Below the pieces are notes generated by a model. The model searched no databases, was not told the DNA's origin, and saw only the letters and a list, made by a program, of their open reading frames with translations. A stretch of DNA of 64,000 bases, taken from contig JBBSVN010000004.1 of NCBI GenBank assembly GCA_038046765.1, positions 96,001 through 160,000 on the forward strand, given 5' to 3'. Positions 28,912 through 44,555 of the stretch are shown here, piece after piece. Origin of the DNA: Candidatus Micrarchaeota archaeon (GTDB taxonomy: Archaea; Micrarchaeota; Micrarchaeia; Anstonellales; Bilamarchaeaceae). A program made the position numbers and the translations under genes. Each line of letters opens with the position of its first letter. Within the stretch, counting starts at the first letter, position 1.

Positions 28912-29822
28912 ATGGTATTTAGAGAAAAATTTGAAGAGAGAGAGAGAGTACTCCCAAGGCGAATATAACACCAGTTAAAGTAAACGATAATTATGTTCAA
29001 AACGTTGTCGCACTCCTTGCAAATAAAGATGATAAAATTCGGGAAAATGCCAGATCAGAACTAATTGAACTTGCTTCTAAAAATAAAGCTAATTTGGAAA
29101 AGATATGTAACTCGCTAGTTATGGTACTTGGTAAAGTTGGCTCAAGTGACAAGACAACTAAAGAACTTGACTCATTAGATAAAAAAATGAGTCTTATATC
29201 AGACCCAGTTAGTTTACAACTAGAGAAGATTGAGGGTAGAAAAGTGACTTATAACGAAACAATCAATTACCTAGAAAAAAATTCTCCCAAGCTTTTTGAA
29301 GAATGGCTAGGACTATCAACAAAAAGAAGGAAAATATTAGAGGGGAGTACTGAAGAAATAAAAATTTTGGAACATTTTGCAAAAGAGGGTATGATCCCAA
29401 AAGCAACGATTGGAAAGACAGTAGATCTGCTTATGAGTGATGGTCGTGCAACTGAAATGAGCTATGCTGCTTTGGCTATTTTTCAAAAATATAAAATGGA
29501 CATCTCCGAATTTATTCCAAGGATAATAAAAAGTGTTGAGAAGGCAGATAAATATAAAGACCCTGGAGTTTCTGTTTTATGGCTTGCTTTAAAAAATGGA
29601 GATTACTTTTATGACCAGGTAGCAAACCTAATGAAATTGCTAAAAAAACCGAATGCAGGCGAATTTGCAACAACTTTTCTTGCTGAAATAGCCAGTAAAA
29701 ATGAAAAATACTTGAACATGATAAAAAAAGAACTAATAAAAGTTAGAAAAACAGAAGATCTTGAAGACTTACAGGAAAAACGTATCGAATGGTTGGAAAG
29801 AAAGGTAGGTTTAAAGGAATAA
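28912..29822 (+). pseudogene. Helical (HEAT-like) protein frameshifted at an (AG)7 tract
   Basis: GGTGA RBS + ATG 28912; deleting one AG of 28935-28948 gives a 302-aa ORF. Confidence 0.65.
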
Positions 29823-35818: not shown

Positions 35819-35903
35819 AGTAATAGTTAACCAGCATTTTTATTTAAATTCGCGTTTATTACAAATCCGCTAGGGATATATGCTTTATTGGATATATATT
35901 TAT

Positions 35904-36938
35904 ATGAAAAAACCTGAGTTATTTGAAAACTCTATTGCAGAACTTGCAGGTTTGTGGATAGCTGAAGGGGATGATAAAACTAAGTGGGAAATAACAATTA
36001 CAAACAATTCACTTGAACTAATAAAATTTTCATACAATGTCTTAAAGAGACTTTTCAGACCAAAAAATTTTAGAATTTACATTTATTTACCTGAAAAAAG
36101 TTGGGTAATAAAAGAACGCTTACCTAAAGCCATTTTAAAATATTATATGGATCAAAGAGCAAACAAACCGTATTTTATACTTAGATTCGCAAACGTAATT
36201 AAAGTCAAAGAATGGAAACAAATGGTTCAGAAAATATGCTCGAATGAAAGATATTACTCAGATATTTTAAGAGGATTCTTTGCAGGGGAAGGAAACATAA
36301 AAACAGGAACCCATTCTGATAGAACATTAAGAATGGCTCAGAAGGAGCCTATACCAGTAATAAACAAAATTTTAGAACATTTCCAAATCGAATGGAAATT
36401 TAGTAATAGAGAGCGTAGTTATGTAATAGTTGGAAGAAACAACTGGAAAAAACTTGCGGATATCAGAATAGCAGATATGCATCCAATTAAAAAGCAAAAA
36501 TTTTGGGAAGTTTACGATGGATATAAACAATGGCATTATAAGAAACACTACATACGAGATAACATTGAAACTTTATTGATTACACCTCTAACATCTAGTG
36601 AGCTTGCGATAAAGTTTAATCGAGATCATTCTAGGTTAACAGAAATATTATGTGAATTAAAGAAGAAGAATAAGGTGCAAATGTTTAAAGTTAGAAGCAA
36701 AATCTATTGGTTAAGCATTAACTCTAAGATAATTCCAATTTCAAAAAGAAAAAGATCGATTCTAGATACTATTAATGTAAAACCAAAAAGAACTTATGAA
36801 ATAGCACATGAGTTAGGAATAGATCAAAAAGGTGCTTTAAGAAGATTAAGAGAACTAGAAAAATTACAATTAGTATATCGTGAAGATTACTTTTGGAGCA
36901 AGCTTCCGATTCAAAAAGAGGTGTTAGTGTATGAGTAA
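35904..36938 (+). CDS. Free-standing double-motif LAGLIDADG endonuclease-like protein with C-terminal HTH domains
   Basis: AELAGLWIAEG and DILRGFFAGEG motifs; TSSELAIKF and TYEIAHELG HTHs; alternative start 35880. Confidence 0.85.
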   Translation: MKKPELFENSIAELAGLWIAEGDDKTKWEITITNNSLELIKFSYNVLKRLFRPKNFRIYIYLPEKSWVIKERLPKAILKYYMDQRANKPYFILRFANVIKVKEWKQMVQKICSNERYYSDILRGFFAGEGNIKTGTHSDRTLRMAQKEPIPVINKILEHFQIEWKFSNRERSYVIVGRNNWKKLADIRIADMHPIKKQKFWEVYDGYKQWHYKKHYIRDNIETLLITPLTSSELAIKFNRDHSRLTEILCELKKKNKVQMFKVRSKIYWLSINSKIIPISKRKRSILDTINVKPKRTYEIAHELGIDQKGALRRLRELEKLQLVYREDYFWSKLPIQKEVLVYE

Positions 36939-40777: not shown

Positions 40778-41074
40778 TTAAAGAGATGCAAGCTTGCTCT
40801 GCAGAGTGTATAATCTTTTTACGTACTCTTCATAAACTGATTTTCGATTTTCCAGAATTAAAAACCAGAGATTAACTTTATCAAAGTAATATACTAAACG
40901 CATACCCTCTATTATTATTGAATAACAATTATTTTTGCCTTTTAAGTGTTTAAATTGGTCTGGGCTTTGTTTAATAATTTCCAGTTTTTTATTTACGATA
41001 TCCAACTGATTAGAGTTGAGGGTCTCCAAATCCCTAAAAAATTTAGGGTGGTACTGGATTTGAAAATCAGACAT
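40778..41074 (-). CDS. RelE/ParE-like toxin
   Basis: YHPKFFRDL, FKHLKG, MRLVY and RKSVY. Confidence 0.75.
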   Translation of the reverse strand: MSDFQIQYHPKFFRDLETLNSNQLDIVNKKLEIIKQSPDQFKHLKGKNNCYSIIIEGMRLVYYFDKVNLWFLILENRKSVYEEYVKRLYTLQSKLASL

Positions 41075-41285
41075 TTTTTACGCCTTTAGCCTTCATGAAT
41101 TTTTTATAGTCGTTTTCATTCAACATTTGAACCTGACTGGTTTTAGCTTCAGATAGCCTTTTTTCTGATTCAATAGTTAAAGCAGTGTCAAGAATTTTTT
41201 CATAATCAACTAAAAGTTTTTCAAAATCAAAAATAAAATTTTCAAAGACTTGCTTTTGAACAGTTATTGTTTCCATTTTCATCAC
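41067..41285 (-). CDS. Putative antitoxin
   Basis: Small ORF overlapping the RelE-like gene upstream. Confidence 0.6.
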   Translation of the reverse strand: MMKMETITVQKQVFENFIFDFEKLLVDYEKILDTALTIESEKRLSEAKTSQVQMLNENDYKKFMKAKGVKNV

Positions 41286-41321
41286 ATAAGTATTATTCTT
41301 TAAGAATATTTAATAGTTTGT

Positions 41322-43124
41322 TTACTTCATTAACAATTTCTCGTAAGTTTGACGAGTTACACACGCCACCCCGTAACCGACGCCGTGCCCCCTGTTGGCA
41401 CCGACATCCTGCCCGACGAAGTCGTTCCCGTAGAAGTAACGGACCAAAAGACCGGAATATTTTTCAATTCTCCATAAACGTCTTGCGTCTTGATCATATT
41501 CATTTGTAGATTTACCAGAAGGAATACCAAATTCATCTTGCTTATACCAACCATTTTTTGTGTGTAATTTTATTTCCTTAGTTTTTCCATCCTGTGTTAT
41601 TACGCATTTTTCTCCATCAAGGTCTACCAATGTTCCAGTCCTGCAGGGAAATAATCCTAACTTCTGGTATTTCTCCCTTAATTTTGGATTTTGTAAAATC
41701 GTATCAATAACTGTGTTTGGTAAGATAACTAAACCTTGTTTTTCTAATGCAAGAGTTTGTTCTAAGTTTAGGTTTTTATGGACTTGGATTTCTTTACTTG
41801 TAAGGTCAAGTTTTGACCAGTCGGCAACTCCAACAGGAGTTGACGAACCAAGAACTCCTTGCCAATGATGGGGGTCTAGCATTCCTTTGAATTTACCATT
41901 CTCACCATCTTGGAGGAATTTTCTTTCTTCTTGAAGTTGTTTGAGTTTTGTCTTGTATCTTCTCCTAAAAAGGTTCAAACTAGTTAGAATAACAGAAACA
42001 ATAAACAGCGTAGTTAATTCTATAGTCGTTATAGGGAGATTTTTGGCAACTGATACAATAAAAATTATGACAGAATTTAAACTTACATATCCTAAAAGCA
42101 AAGGTGCAAAACCAGTTTTTCTAATCCATATTTCTAAATCTTTAATCTCCTTATCAAGTTTTTCAATTCGTGCCAAAGCAGTTTCCTGTTCTTTTTGAAC
42201 TGGTTCTAAAGCAACATTTTCATTTACCAAAATGGCTAAAACTTCTCTTACTTGTGCAGCATTTTGATACCTATTTTTAGGATCAACTTCTAGGCATTTA
42301 CCAATAATTTTTTCAAACCCCCTAACGGATGCAGGAGCATTACCAGAATCAATTGCCTCTTTTAAATCTTCTTTATCCATGCCAGCTAAGAATATTCCAA
42401 GTAGTGCGCCAAATGAATAAAGGTCAGCAGATGCTGATACTCTTTTTGAACCACTAGCTACTTCAGGAGGAGTGCATTCATAATTATTAACTGCCCAAAT
42501 AGTTGTCCCAGTACTGTTTCTAACCTGAACAAAAGCAAAATCAATTAGATAAAGCTTGCCATCTGGAGTTACAATTAAATTTTCTGGTTTGACATCCTTA
42601 TGAACTATTGGGGGATTTTTACTATGCAAATATTCTAAAATATCAAGTAGCTGATTAGCTAAAGAAAGCACCTGATTTTTATCTAAATGAACATTTTCAT
42701 CTATTAAATGTTTTAATGTTTTACCTTCAACAAAGTCCATCACAATATATTGTTCCTGTTCAGTTTGATTTCGATAAGAATCGATTAATTTTGGAATGCC
42801 TACGTGATCTGCTTGAGACAAGATATTTATTTCACGCTCGGCTAGAGCAAAAATTCGATGGTCTTTTACAACGCTTAAACTCATGTCTTTTACTACAACT
42901 AATTTTTGATGTGTAATAGAATAAGCAAGATAAACTTCTGCATTAACTGATTGTGTTGGGGAATCTTCTTTTTTATCCCTTGAAAGTAGTTTAAGTAAAG
43001 AATATTTATTCCCATTAATTATTTTTGTACCAAGAATATGCTCTGGAACTGGAAGAGGTAGAACTATTTTTGCCTGATCAATAGCAACTAAAGACCTAGT
43101 AATAGCTAATCTTGGTTCTGCCAT
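41322..43124 (-). CDS. Hanks-type Ser/Thr kinase - 2 TM - C-terminal putative CLec-like domain
   Basis: VVVK, E, HKDVKPEN, DFA, PPE and DLYSFG motifs; two TM helices; C-terminal domain. Confidence 0.85.
   Translation of the reverse strand: MAEPRLAITRSLVAIDQAKIVLPLPVPEHILGTKIINGNKYSLLKLLSRDKKEDSPTQSVNAEVYLAYSITHQKLVVVKDMSLSVVKDHRIFALAEREINILSQADHVGIPKLIDSYRNQTEQEQYIVMDFVEGKTLKHLIDENVHLDKNQVLSLANQLLDILEYLHSKNPPIVHKDVKPENLIVTPDGKLYLIDFAFVQVRNSTGTTIWAVNNYECTPPEVASGSKRVSASADLYSFGALLGIFLAGMDKEDLKEAIDSGNAPASVRGFEKIIGKCLEVDPKNRYQNAAQVREVLAILVNENVALEPVQKEQETALARIEKLDKEIKDLEIWIRKTGFAPLLLGYVSLNSVIIFIVSVAKNLPITTIELTTLFIVSVILTSLNLFRRRYKTKLKQLQEERKFLQDGENGKFKGMLDPHHWQGVLGSSTPVGVADWSKLDLTSKEIQVHKNLNLEQTLALEKQGLVILPNTVIDTILQNPKLREKYQKLGLFPCRTGTLVDLDGEKCVITQDGKTKEIKLHTKNGWYKQDEFGIPSGKSTNEYDQDARRLWRIEKYSGLLVRYFYGNDFVGQDVGANRGHGVGYGVACVTRQTYEKLLMK
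41361..41450 (-). other. Candidate DGR variable region
   Basis: 56/90 nt G+C in an AT-rich gene; 15 of 27 codons are NNC and none end in A. Confidence 0.65.
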
Positions 43125-43244: not shown

Positions 43245-44555
43245 CTAAGAAGAAAGCGAATAATAAACAGACTTTCCCCGCCTGTGCATAAACAAATAAC
43301 CCATTTTAACAAGACCAGACAAATCATCCCGAGCCGTTCTTTCCTTTACCTTAAATTCCTTCTTATAGTAAGAGGTACTTAATTCCTTTTTGTTCGCTAG
43401 CTCTAGTGCCTTTTGCTGACGGGAATTTAGTTCAGGTTTGGTGTTAAAAATCCTTAGGATAGTAAACTCTCCCTGCTCTGTATATTCAGGCTCTTTTAGC
43501 CCCCACTCTTTGCACTGATTAAATATCTTAGTTGTACCAGTACCAAATTGCTCAACATATCCGCATTTATACGCAGTCTTTGCAATAAGCTCATTTCGCG
43601 GTTTTGACGCATGTTCTGGTTTTTTTAATTCCTCAACAGTAACACCTTGCGGAAGTAGACCTGGATTTTTTATCTCTATATAATTTTCCTTAATTGAAAG
43701 ATAGCAGGCACTTGAGGAAAAAAAATCCCGATGAATTATCGAATTTATTATAGCCTCGCGAATTGCTTCAACAGGATATTCATATGTTAATTCTCTTCGT
43801 GTGCCGATTATTTTAGAAGAAGCGCGAATATTAGATAATAAGTAAGAATAGACATAATCAATCATATCAAACAGATTACCTTCTATTAGTTTAAGATCTA
43901 AAAATTCCGAACCTTTTAAGACCGCGCAGCGAAAGGAAAAATTAGTAAAGTATTTCTGTGGATTTTTTCCAAAACATATTACAGCCGCATTCTTTAATTT
44001 GCCGTTTAGCATTTCAAGATTTTTAAGCACGGATTCTGCGCTACCATTTATCTGCATATTTCTCTGTTTCCTTGCTCTATCAATAAAAGTTAGGATTGCA
44101 TTATCATCTATTTCCGATATTTGTGCGACAGAAGATTGCTTATCAAAGGCAATTCTTTCCCAGTTTCTTTTTATAACCAAAGTATCAATTTCACTTCTAC
44201 TTAGTTTCATATTAGACTTTCCAACCCGCCTGTATGCAATGCCTTTAGCAAGGTATGGTTTATCAAACCCTTCCTTAACAGATATTTTTATTATGCCCTT
44301 ATCTAGTTCAATGTATTCGGATATAATATCTGGAAAAATTTTTGGGTCGGTATTCTCCACGATTATTTTTGTCAGGTTTTCAATCGTATTTTTTCCTATT
44401 GAAAGCGGCTTAAGTTTGCCCTCATCACTTACTCCTATAAATATTTCTCCACCTTTATGATTTGAAAAAGCAGCAACACACTGGATTATCGCATCCTGGT
44501 CGCTAAGACTTTCCTTAAATTCGACAGTTTCACTTTCATTTTTAGGTATATCCAT
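43245..44555 (-). CDS. Schlafen AlbA_2 + HATPase_c_4 + wHTH protein (second paralog)
   Basis: ESETVEFKES, AFSNHKGG, REAIINSIIHRDF, NPG, EQFGTG and RTARDDL motifs. Confidence 0.9.
   Translation of the reverse strand: MDIPKNESETVEFKESLSDQDAIIQCVAAFSNHKGGEIFIGVSDEGKLKPLSIGKNTIENLTKIIVENTDPKIFPDIISEYIELDKGIIKISVKEGFDKPYLAKGIAYRRVGKSNMKLSRSEIDTLVIKRNWERIAFDKQSSVAQISEIDDNAILTFIDRARKQRNMQINGSAESVLKNLEMLNGKLKNAAVICFGKNPQKYFTNFSFRCAVLKGSEFLDLKLIEGNLFDMIDYVYSYLLSNIRASSKIIGTRRELTYEYPVEAIREAIINSIIHRDFFSSSACYLSIKENYIEIKNPGLLPQGVTVEELKKPEHASKPRNELIAKTAYKCGYVEQFGTGTTKIFNQCKEWGLKEPEYTEQGEFTILRIFNTKPELNSRQQKALELANKKELSTSYYKKEFKVKERTARDDLSGLVKMGYLFMHRRGKSVYYSLSS

What the first reader, a model, noticed from the sequence alone, without database searches (positions are those of the whole stretch)
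41340..41455. DGR-like variable region at the C-terminus of a membrane Ser/Thr kinase
Seen in sequence: G+C jumps to 62% (56/90 nt, 41361-41450) at the end of an AT-rich gene. Codons read GTC CGT TAC TTC TAC GGG AAC GAC TTC GTC GGG CAG GAT GTC GGT GCC AAC AGG GGG CAC GGC GTC GGT TAC GGG GTG GCG (15/27 NNC, none ending in A). A short inverted repeat CTCGT-N7-ACGAG follows (41340-41356). Established: DGR variable regions derive from AAC-rich template repeats by adenine mutagenesis, end CLec-fold domains and occur in DPANN. Inference: this is a remote (trans) DGR target that gives a kinase a hypervariable binding domain. Two TMs would place the kinase and this domain on the same side of the membrane. 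No RT or template repeat is visible in this window.
Basis: partly seen in the sequence, partly recalled or inferred. Interest (0 to 1): 0.85.

Follow-up and report, generated by a model that had tools for sequence, protein, structure and literature searches.

The report
Retroelement-diversified archaeal membrane sensor kinase
The tail of this archaeal kinase gene matches a template 65 kb away and differs from it only where the template has adenines, the mark of a targeted-mutation retroelement (DGR), so the kinase likely carries a rewritable, lectin-like sensor tip inside the cell, while the rewriting enzyme is out of frame at a slippery repeat and is likely switched off.

Summary
Confirmed and extended. 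Window 41365-41448 (-) is a DGR variable region (VR). It matches a template repeat (TR1) 65 kb away on the same contig, with 20 mismatches in 84 nt, all at template adenines. TR1 lies in a cassette with its own target, an RT-16 RNA and a reverse transcriptase (RT). The last 175 aa are predicted to fold as a C-type lectin, closest to Nanoarchaeota AvpA (Z 8.6). A second kinase uses the same template, and both were rewritten independently. Both RTs of this Micrarchaeota genome are frameshifted at an (AG)7 tract. 24 of 28 related RTs carry such repeats at the same site, so this is likely an on/off switch. No VR variants appeared in contigs of 4 runs. The flagged inverted repeat is weak. Kinase-lectin remote targets are known in cyanobacteria; I found none described for DPANN archaea, but Paul 2017 was unavailable. 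The scan earlier noted the paralogous kinase (without finding the machinery) and the repeat switch in other genomes. New variant of a known kind; interest 0.6.

The parts
41322..43124 (-). Gene for a 600-aa Ser/Thr kinase - two TM segments - C-type-lectin-fold protein; remote DGR target
   Evidence: ORF; Pfam; TR match
42210..43007 (-). Hanks-type kinase domain (about aa 40-305): K79, HKD-K-N (D177), DFA (D195), PPE; no canonical Gly-rich loop
   Evidence: motif roles from established kinase knowledge (recalled)
42045..42101 (-). Predicted TM1 (aa 342-360)
   Evidence: Kyte-Doolittle mean 2.24
41967..42023 (-). Predicted TM2 (aa 368-386), followed by RRRYKTKLK (8 K/R in 17 aa)
   Evidence: mean 1.88; charges
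41349..41807 (-). Predicted C-type lectin (CLec) domain, aa 440-592
   Evidence: AlphaFold2 pLDDT 93.7; top structural match 5IOO AvpA, Z 8.6, rmsd 3.5, 135 aligned
41365..41448 (-). Variable region (84 nt, aa 560-587), homologous to TR1 at G000:C4:71857-71947 (-), which lies outside the window beside RT1 (C4:70753-71830)
   Evidence: 20 mismatches, all at TR adenines (15 A>G, 5 A>T), 0 of 52 at other bases
41365..41371 (-). IMH-like end of the VR (GGGTGGC against TR AAATGAC); these four A>G differences are shared by all five VRs of the genome
   Evidence: compare TGGGGT/TGGAAT in PMC4372165 (passage)
41340..41356 (-). Weak 5-bp/7-nt-loop inverted repeat at the position of the DGR recognition hairpin; not the canonical GRA-loop type
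41318..41336 (-). Second weak 5-bp hairpin across the stop codon; a two-hairpin layout is also predicted behind the paralogous kinase's VR and the cassette's own VR

Best explanation
The 3' end of this kinase gene is a DGR variable region that differs from a template 65 kb away only at template adenines, and the protein likely works as a membrane-tethered sensor kinase whose rewritable lectin-fold tip is predicted to sit in the cytoplasm, with rewriting likely paused because the reverse transcriptase is out of frame at a slippery (AG)7 repeat. Steps: (1) SHOWN: the VR matches TR1 with adenine-only mismatches, and TR1 sits in a target-RT16 RNA-TR-RT cassette (0.97). (2) SHOWN by comparison: two diverged kinases each took a separate mutagenised copy of the current TR1, so homing acted in trans (0.9). 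(3) PREDICTED: the VR forms the last loops and strand of an AvpA-like CLec domain, a ligand pocket with 28 variable adenines in 19 codons and about 10^16 protein variants (0.9). (4) INFERRED: a two-helix membrane hairpin keeps kinase and CLec on the cytoplasmic side (0.75). (5) INFERRED: binding of a foreign protein (viral, or host-derived in this likely symbiont) clusters or releases the kinase, which then phosphorylates cell targets (0.5). (6) INFERRED: slippage of the repeat occasionally restores the RT frame in a few cells, giving a burst of new sensor variants that are then frozen (0.7).
For: TR1 match: hypergeometric P=2e-11; 2e-9 without the four IMH positions. In a genome-wide scan with the TR1 core, the template and its three VRs score 34/34 at non-A positions; the next hit is 22/34. 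The two kinases differ at 65 of 330 nt upstream, but at 0 of 52 non-A and 13 of 32 A positions in the VR. Their CLec scaffolds form a clade (98/96) apart from TR1's own target. RT-16 RNA scores above its cut-off in both cassettes. CLec fold. Hydropathy and charge. RT linker repeats in 26 of 30 RT loci, and none as long in the rest of those genes; all 21 shifted copies have a repeat and all 4 repeat-free copies are in frame. Both own RT halves are otherwise open and keep GKGTH and YVDD. Contigs of 3 runs bridge the RT1 tract without a gap. Only three (AG)6+ tracts exist in 1.5 Mb, two of them in the RTs.
Against: No ligand, substrate or activity is known. The kinase lacks the Gly-rich loop and has HKD and DFA in place of HRD and DFG. 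No VR variant and no tract-length variant was seen in contigs, so neither ongoing mutagenesis nor switching is shown in this population. No Avd gene was found. The hairpin is weak. Foldseek gave no match at E<=0.001, and Z 8.6 is only 1.0 above the next row, though that row and the rest are also C-type lectins. Relatives are not independent, and short-read assemblies can miscall homopolymers.
Confidence: 0.6

Rival explanations
1. Same DGR target, but the CLec domain picks the substrate instead of sensing a trigger: each VR variant redirects phosphorylation to different proteins.
For: Kinase and CLec are predicted to be on the same side of the membrane. PMC7517822 (section 7 read) offers this and autoinhibition as alternatives for cyanobacterial kinase-CLec targets.
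Against: A long helical spacer and a membrane hairpin separate the two domains. Stand-alone copies of the same domain without a kinase exist (C4:193285-193926 and C1:2147-2791), which fits a general binding module.
Confidence: 0.25
2. Recent fossil: both RTs are dead pseudogenes and the kinase VR is frozen for good.
For: Both RTs are out of frame. No Avd was found. The VR is identical in contigs of 4 runs from 2 studies. Several paralogues carry orphan or decayed VRs, and one kinase copy is broken.
Against: Each RT has only this one break, at the same repeat site. 19 of 28 related RTs are shifted at that site, always at a repeat, with three repeat types. TR1 and its three VRs have no non-adenine mismatch, so there is no sign of decay.
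Confidence: 0.2
3. The tract is not a heritable switch but a leak: transcript slippage or ribosomal frameshifting gives a constant low dose of full-length RT.
For: All three (AG)7 tracts of the genome have the same length and the same -1 offset. Only 5 of 26 repeat-bearing RTs are in frame (binomial P=0.09 against one third).
Against: Relatives show all three frames, many tract lengths and three repeat types. A programmed shift would be expected to keep one offset.
Confidence: 0.2
4. Receptor-kinase topology: only one segment crosses the membrane, and the CLec domain faces outward to sense a host surface.
For: TM2 is only moderately hydrophobic (1.88; 1.6-1.7 for segments in paralogues). Most cellular DGR targets are reported as surface or adhesion proteins (PMC8144416 and its preprint, passages).
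Against: Two hydrophobic segments with a short loop recur in 4 of 4 kinase paralogues examined. The segment after TM2 is strongly basic (8 K/R), which is the cytoplasmic signature.
Confidence: 0.15
5. The VR was copied by ordinary gene conversion or duplication from the cassette's own target gene, without retrohoming.
For: The three VRs are identical at all non-adenine positions.
Against: They differ from each other at 13-16 of 32 template-adenine positions and nowhere else. Similarity stops at the TR boundaries. The scaffolds are only distantly related.
Confidence: 0.03

Closest known systems
Cyanobacterial DGR variable proteins of the Ser/Thr kinase-CLec type, including remote targets (Vallota-Eastman et al. 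2020, PMC7517822; passages and section 7 read)
   Same: N-terminal Hanks kinase, C-terminal CLec with the VR near the 3' end, dispersed paralogues served in trans, mostly predicted cytosolic.
   Different: Here the host is a DPANN archaeon (Micrarchaeota). The CLec is closest to the AvpA subclass and has no Pfam match. A two-helix membrane hairpin lies between the domains. The RT is out of frame at a repeat.
Nanoarchaeota (DUSEL4) DGRs and AvpA (Paul et al. 2015, PMC4372165, passages and section 6; Handa et al. 2016, PMC5006420, abstract and part 1 of Results)
   Same: Several cassettes per genome; TGGGGT/TGGAAT-like IMH/IMH*; GRA-loop hairpins inside the target gene; VR-only partial DGRs; AvpA-like fold with the IMH encoding the last strand.
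   Different: AvpA is a single-domain protein; the word kinase does not occur in the main text of PMC4372165. That paper left open whether VR-only genes are fossils or remote targets; here the cognate TR is identified. It shows Avd-like ORFs between target and RT, which these cassettes lack.
DGR-diversified putative antigen sensors of multicellular bacteria (Dore et al. 2024, PMC10907252; passages read)
   Same: CLec sensors tied to signalling domains, trans targets, cytoplasmic or membrane-bound location.
   Different: [quoted passage not shown] This kinase fusion looks like an exception, although I did not place the RT in their tree.
Simple-sequence-repeat contingency loci (phase variation by slipped-strand mispairing; seen as search listings, otherwise recalled)
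   Same: An in-gene dinucleotide or homopolymer tract whose length sets the reading frame.
   Different: The gated gene is a mutator enzyme (DGR RT) in an archaeon. Switching within a population was not observed here.

Membership tests
DGR variable protein (remote target) | A template repeat that differs from the VR only at adenines | tested here: met
   20 of 20 mismatches at TR1 adenines over 84 nt
DGR variable protein (remote target) | An RT gene beside the template repeat | tested here: met
   RVT_1 over cut-off, E=3e-17, directly after TR1; RT-16 RNA upstream. The ORF is split by one frameshift.
DGR variable protein (remote target) | RT belongs to the DGR clade of RTs | not tested
   No RT tree was built. 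Close relatives sit beside TR/VR pairs, which is indirect support.
DGR variable protein (remote target) | IMH at the VR 3' end and a differing IMH* in the TR | tested here: met
   GGGGTGG against GAAATGA in all five VRs of the genome and in relatives
DGR variable protein (remote target) | Hairpin downstream of the VR (GRA loop in DPANN) | tested here: inconclusive
   GAA-loop hairpins follow both cassette targets; the kinase has a weak 7-nt-loop stem at the same offset
DGR variable protein (remote target) | VR at the end of a CLec (or Ig) fold | tested here: met
   Predicted model pLDDT 93.7; top match AvpA 5IOO Z 8.6, following rows C-type lectins
DGR variable protein (remote target) | Accessory factor Avd | tested here: inconclusive
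   PF22296 not found in an 89.7% complete genome; no shared small ORF family in 31 loci with about 1.5-kb flanks
DGR variable protein (remote target) | Ongoing adenine mutagenesis in the population | tested here: inconclusive
   Same VR in contigs of 4 runs; contigs drop rare variants and no raw reads were offered
Hanks-type Ser/Thr kinase | Catalytic residues: beta-3 Lys, alpha-C Glu, HxD-x-K-x-x-N, DFx | tested here: met
   VVVK76-79, AERE95-98, HKDVKPEN175-182, DFA195-197, PPE219-221; Pkinase E=8e-32
Hanks-type Ser/Thr kinase | Gly-rich ATP-binding loop (GxGxxG) | tested here: not met
   Absent by reading the sequence; also degenerate in most relatives. This lowers confidence in activity, not in homology.
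Hanks-type Ser/Thr kinase | Phosphotransfer activity | not testable with these tools
   Needs an assay
SSR contingency locus (RT gene) | In-gene repeat whose length sets the frame and varies among relatives | tested here: met
   26 of 30 loci with a repeat; frames 0, 1 and 2 all seen
SSR contingency locus (RT gene) | Reversible switching within one population | tested here: inconclusive
   One tract length in contigs of 3 runs of one study
PADLOC kinase defence systems (PD-T4-6, MADS, Mokosh) | Match beyond the generic kinase domain and cognate partner genes | tested here: not met
   Hits cover only aa 32-330; neighbours match no partner

The most novel reading that the evidence does not exclude
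A DPANN archaeon has built an adaptive intracellular surveillance receptor. Membrane-tethered kinases captured a lectin module, were retargeted from an older template to the resident TR1, and get their sensor repertoire rewritten in bursts whenever a slippery repeat flips the reverse transcriptase on. One phase-variable switch would thus gate hypermutation of a dispersed kinase signalling family.
Probability: 0.3. Interest if true: 0.82.

Novelty: new variant of a known kind. Interest (0 to 1): 0.6.

Why it matters
DPANN DGRs are usually read as tools for host attachment, and one survey states that they lack conflict-system domains (PMC10907252). Here an archaeal DGR has rewritten the binding tip of two signalling kinases from a distance, which points to intracellular sensing or defence. 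The genome also answers, for one case, the fossil-or-remote question left open for VR-only genes in Nanoarchaeota: the cognate templates are present. It shows one protein scaffold carrying VRs from different templates, so targets can apparently be handed from one DGR to another. The repeat in the RT offers a simple, testable answer to how a cell limits DGR mutagenesis. The set is compact enough to reconstitute: one RT, one TR and three targets with different hairpins.

Tried and rejected
Sequence searches of the CLec domain against PDB and Pfam found nothing useful. Foldseek gave no match at E<=0.001, although C-type lectins had the best TM-scores among its weak rows. TR2 is not the kinase's template: only the last 14 nt match cleanly. 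No third AAC-rich template was found in the assembly (that crude scan also missed TR2, so it is a weak test). The inverted repeat was rejected as stand-alone evidence. Assembly error at the RT1 tract was rejected, because contigs of X1, X2 and X3 bridge it without gaps (X1 may be the source, all three are one study). The RT2 tract was not checked with reads. 'Other letters' over the VR come from paralogues (the cassette target and the C1 kinase), not from alleles. No RNA holder was listed. Other kinase-CLec fusions: two protein searches returned only the two proteins of this genome. Among 150 listed matches in 401 phylum genomes (5 more were not listed), only G000 had frames of 500 aa or more, and the four frames of 440-492 aa were not kinases. 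A full-length structure job had not finished and is not used. Literature searches listed no paper on kinase DGR targets in DPANN or on repeat tracts in DGR RTs. Paul et al. 2017 (Nat Microbiol, the main CPR/DPANN DGR survey) is not held and may bear on both points, as may supplementary tables that I did not open.

Full report
OBSERVATION. The ORF at 41322-43124 (-) encodes 600 aa with a Pkinase domain (E=8e-32). The stretch 41361-41450 has 56 G+C in 90 nt, a level reached by 0.025% of 90-nt windows in the 1.52-Mb genome. The 27 quoted codons are exact: 15 end in C and none in A, against 11% and 38% over the gene. The inverted repeat is at 41340-41356. The window is G000:C4:96001-160000. The nearest relatives of the neighbouring aCPSF1 gene are nearly all labelled Micrarchaeota, the rest unclassified archaea or one 'Candidatus ainarchaeum' (40 records). 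An earlier scan note had already used that label.

THE TEMPLATE EXISTS. Sliding the segment over the whole genome gave three hits far above background: C4:71.9 kb, C4:72.4 kb and C1:24.8 kb. C4:71857-71947 (TR1) is AAC-rich and sits between a 330-aa gene (C4:72205-73197) and an RT (RVT_1, E=3e-17). An Rfam RT-16 RNA above its cut-off lies just upstream of TR1. Over 84 nt (window 41365-41448) the kinase differs from TR1 at 20 positions, all template adenines (15 A>G, 5 A>T; P=2e-11). Four of these are the fixed IMH/IMH* difference shared by all VRs here and in relatives, like TGGGGT/TGGAAT in Nanoarchaeota (PMC4372165, passage). Without them, 16 of 28 adenines are changed (P=2e-9). TR1 is 65 kb from the kinase on the same contig. 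A second cassette (target, RT-16, TR2, RT2) lies at C4:12214-14492; TR2 matches the kinase only in the last 14 nt.

HOMING IN TRANS, TWICE. TR1 has three VRs: its own target (17 adenine-only mismatches in 91 nt), this kinase, and a 644-aa kinase at C1:23004-24938 (19 in 88 nt). The two kinases differ at 65 of 330 nt upstream of the VR. Inside it they differ at 0 of 52 non-adenine positions (P=1e-5 at the upstream rate) and 13 of 32 adenine positions; each differs from the cassette target at 15-16. So each was overwritten separately from the current TR1 after they diverged. In a tree of 35 domains, the two kinase domains group with two stand-alone paralogues (support 98/96), far from TR1's own target (VR residues were left in, which would pull the other way). 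Those paralogues carry VR-like ends that match neither template. The simplest reading is that this scaffold once served another template and was retargeted to TR1 (inference).

THE PROTEIN. The last 175 aa have no Pfam or PDB sequence match, but 88 relatives among the 50%-cluster representatives. With a 61-row alignment, AlphaFold2 gave pLDDT 93.7 and pTM 0.89. Foldseek found nothing at E<=0.001. The wide VIA-align search ranked Nanoarchaeota AvpA first (5IOO, Z 8.6, rmsd 3.5, 135 aligned), followed by C-type lectin domains, with the DGR protein TaqVP at rank 50. The VR (aa 560-587) covers the last loops, and the IMH encodes the final strand, as in AvpA (PMC5006420, part 1 of Results). TR1 offers 28 variable adenines in 19 codons, about 3x10^16 protein variants, with one codon able to become a stop. 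Hydrophobic segments lie at aa 342-360 and 368-386, with a 7-residue loop and a strongly basic stretch after the second. The same pair occurs in 4 of 4 kinases examined. This predicts kinase and CLec both in the cytoplasm. The kinase keeps K79, HKDVKPEN, DFA and PPE but has no Gly-rich loop, so activity is likely but untested. PADLOC and NCBIfam hits are confined to the generic kinase domain.

DISTRIBUTION. The CLec family occurs in 71 of 401 genomes of the phylum, almost always as stand-alone proteins of about 200-350 aa. Among the 150 matches listed, only this genome has it in frames of 500 aa or more, and the four frames of 440-492 aa are not kinases. Two protein searches found only the two kinases of this genome. 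Five of 175 other genomes of the order have a related kinase at E<=1e-25; one (G014) has a diverged version of the same C-terminal domain without an obvious VR. The VR-bearing fusion is therefore narrow in the genomes searched.

THE HAIRPIN. Both cassette targets have GAA-loop hairpins after the VR. The kinase has a 5-bp stem with a 7-nt loop at the same offset (-5.4 kcal/mol with a second weak stem; 17 of 200 shuffles as good). The C1 kinase has a 10-bp stem (1 of 200). Some 5-bp stem starts in such a window at 5.5% of random sites. The position is suggestive; the stem itself is not evidence.

IS IT ACTIVE? Eleven runs hold part of the region, three nearly all of it, and none is RNA. Contigs of X1, X2, X3 (one study; X1 may be the source) and a 193-nt contig of X4 (another study) carry the identical kinase VR. 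The cassette VR is also unchanged in X1-X3. Contigs hide rare alleles, so this shows a fixed majority allele only. Both RTs are split by one -1 frameshift at an (AG)7 tract between GKGTH and GYVLKAD, and both halves are otherwise open. Contigs of three runs bridge the RT1 tract without a gap. I searched 176 genomes of the order; 35 had this RT. I examined the two own RTs and 29 of the 39 other matches, dropping one cut by a contig end. Of these 30, 26 have an (AG)n, poly-G or poly-C tract in that linker and none as long elsewhere in the gene. 21 are shifted, all with a tract; 5 are in frame with a tract; and all 4 tract-free copies are in frame (Fisher P=0.005). Caveats: kin are not independent, L043 has Ns in the linker, L026 has a further stop downstream, and homopolymers can be misassembled. 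Only three (AG)6+ tracts exist in this genome, two of them in the RTs. This fits a slipped-strand on/off switch now resting off. Other scan reports reached the same idea on other genomes; I saw them after forming it, and they are not independent proof. No Avd was found (genome 89.7% complete).

MECHANISM. Shown: template, adenine-specific divergence, separate rewriting of two kinases, split RTs. Predicted: CLec fold with a variable pocket; membrane hairpin. Inferred: the protein is a membrane-tethered cytoplasmic sensor. A foreign ligand bound by the variable pocket would cluster or release the kinase, and the pocket is rewritten in rare bursts when tract slippage restores the RT. The flanking Schlafen-domain and ParE-like genes fit defence only weakly. 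Rivals are substrate selection by the CLec (0.25), a recent fossil (0.2), a constant leak instead of a switch (0.2), an outward-facing CLec (0.15) and gene conversion (0.03); these address different steps and are not all exclusive.

COMPARISON AND NOVELTY. It works like the kinase-CLec remote targets of cyanobacteria (PMC7517822), and its cis elements and fold are those of Nanoarchaeota DGRs. Remote targets are well known (PMC5758913, passages). It passes the core DGR-target tests; hairpin, Avd and present activity are inconclusive. What differs is a signalling kinase as target in a DPANN archaeon, against the statement that CPR/DPANN clade 5F DGRs lack conflict-system domains (PMC10907252, passage), together with apparent template switching and the repeat-gated RT. 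Eight literature searches listed no report of these, but Paul et al. 2017 was not available and no supplements were read. The scan had flagged the C1 kinase and the C1 stand-alone target without finding the machinery; this report supplies both templates and RTs.

VERDICT. Observation confirmed, interpretation supported. A real remote DGR target, probably dormant. New variant of a known kind; interest 0.6.

Noticed in passing
window 28913-29822 (+), tract 28935-28948: The genome's third and only other (AG)6+ tract, also (AG)7, lies just after an ATG and puts a 290-codon open frame out of register by the same -1 offset as in the RTs; a candidate third phase-variable gene. No homologue in 175 other genomes of the order.
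   Followed up: partly
L025, L026, L027, L040 (template repeats of G102, G120, G010, G004): In 4 related DGRs the TR carries a conserved insert of about 48 nt that is absent from the cognate VR. It could be skipped or removed during cDNA synthesis, or inserted later. TR1 and TR2 of this genome lack it.
   Followed up: no
G000:C4:12214-14492 and C1:53204-54121: Second complete DGR (target, RT-16 RNA, TR2, frameshifted RT2; 19 adenine-only mismatches in 93 nt) with a remote target whose VR is 9 nt longer and has two non-adenine changes.
   Followed up: partly
G000:C4:193285-193926 and C1:2147-2791: Stand-alone copies of the kinase's CLec domain (65-66% identical) with G+C-rich VR-like ends that match neither TR1 nor TR2. 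Their 3' ends resemble by eye the TR type of L045/L040, which suggests a lost or unassembled third template.
   Followed up: partly
G000:C8:49751-51937: A third kinase-2TM-CLec gene with an internal deletion in the CLec domain and a stop codon inside its decayed VR-like stretch.
   Followed up: partly
L056 (G014:C1), L055, L057, L058: Related Micrarchaeota kinases share the kinase-membrane layout but carry different C-terminal parts; G014 has a diverged version of the same domain without a G+C-marked VR.
   Followed up: partly
window 40778-41276 (-) and 43245-44555 (-): The kinase is flanked by a small ORF plus a weak ParE-like ORF (E=0.037) downstream and a Schlafen AlbA_2-HATPase_c_4 gene upstream, a defence-like neighbourhood.
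   Followed up: partly
31 RT loci (L001, L023-L052): No shared Avd-like small ORF in any of these cassettes within about 1.5 kb of the RT match; these DGRs may use another accessory factor or none.
   Followed up: partly
L002:1659, 2471, 2493 in run X2: One contig differs at three single bases in cassette 1, one of them inside TR1; strain difference or error.
   Followed up: no
G035; L106 (G100:C63): G035 has 38 matches to the CLec family. G100 has a CLec target followed by ankyrin-like repeats, recognised by eye.
   Followed up: no
G000:C3:85430-85438, C8:19798-19807, C1:11169-11179: G9-G11 tracts at or just outside gene ends; two share the same flanking sequence at gene starts.
   Followed up: no
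window 35880-36938 (+): 352-aa ORF with LAGLIDADG-like and TrmB-like helix-turn-helix matches.
   Followed up: no
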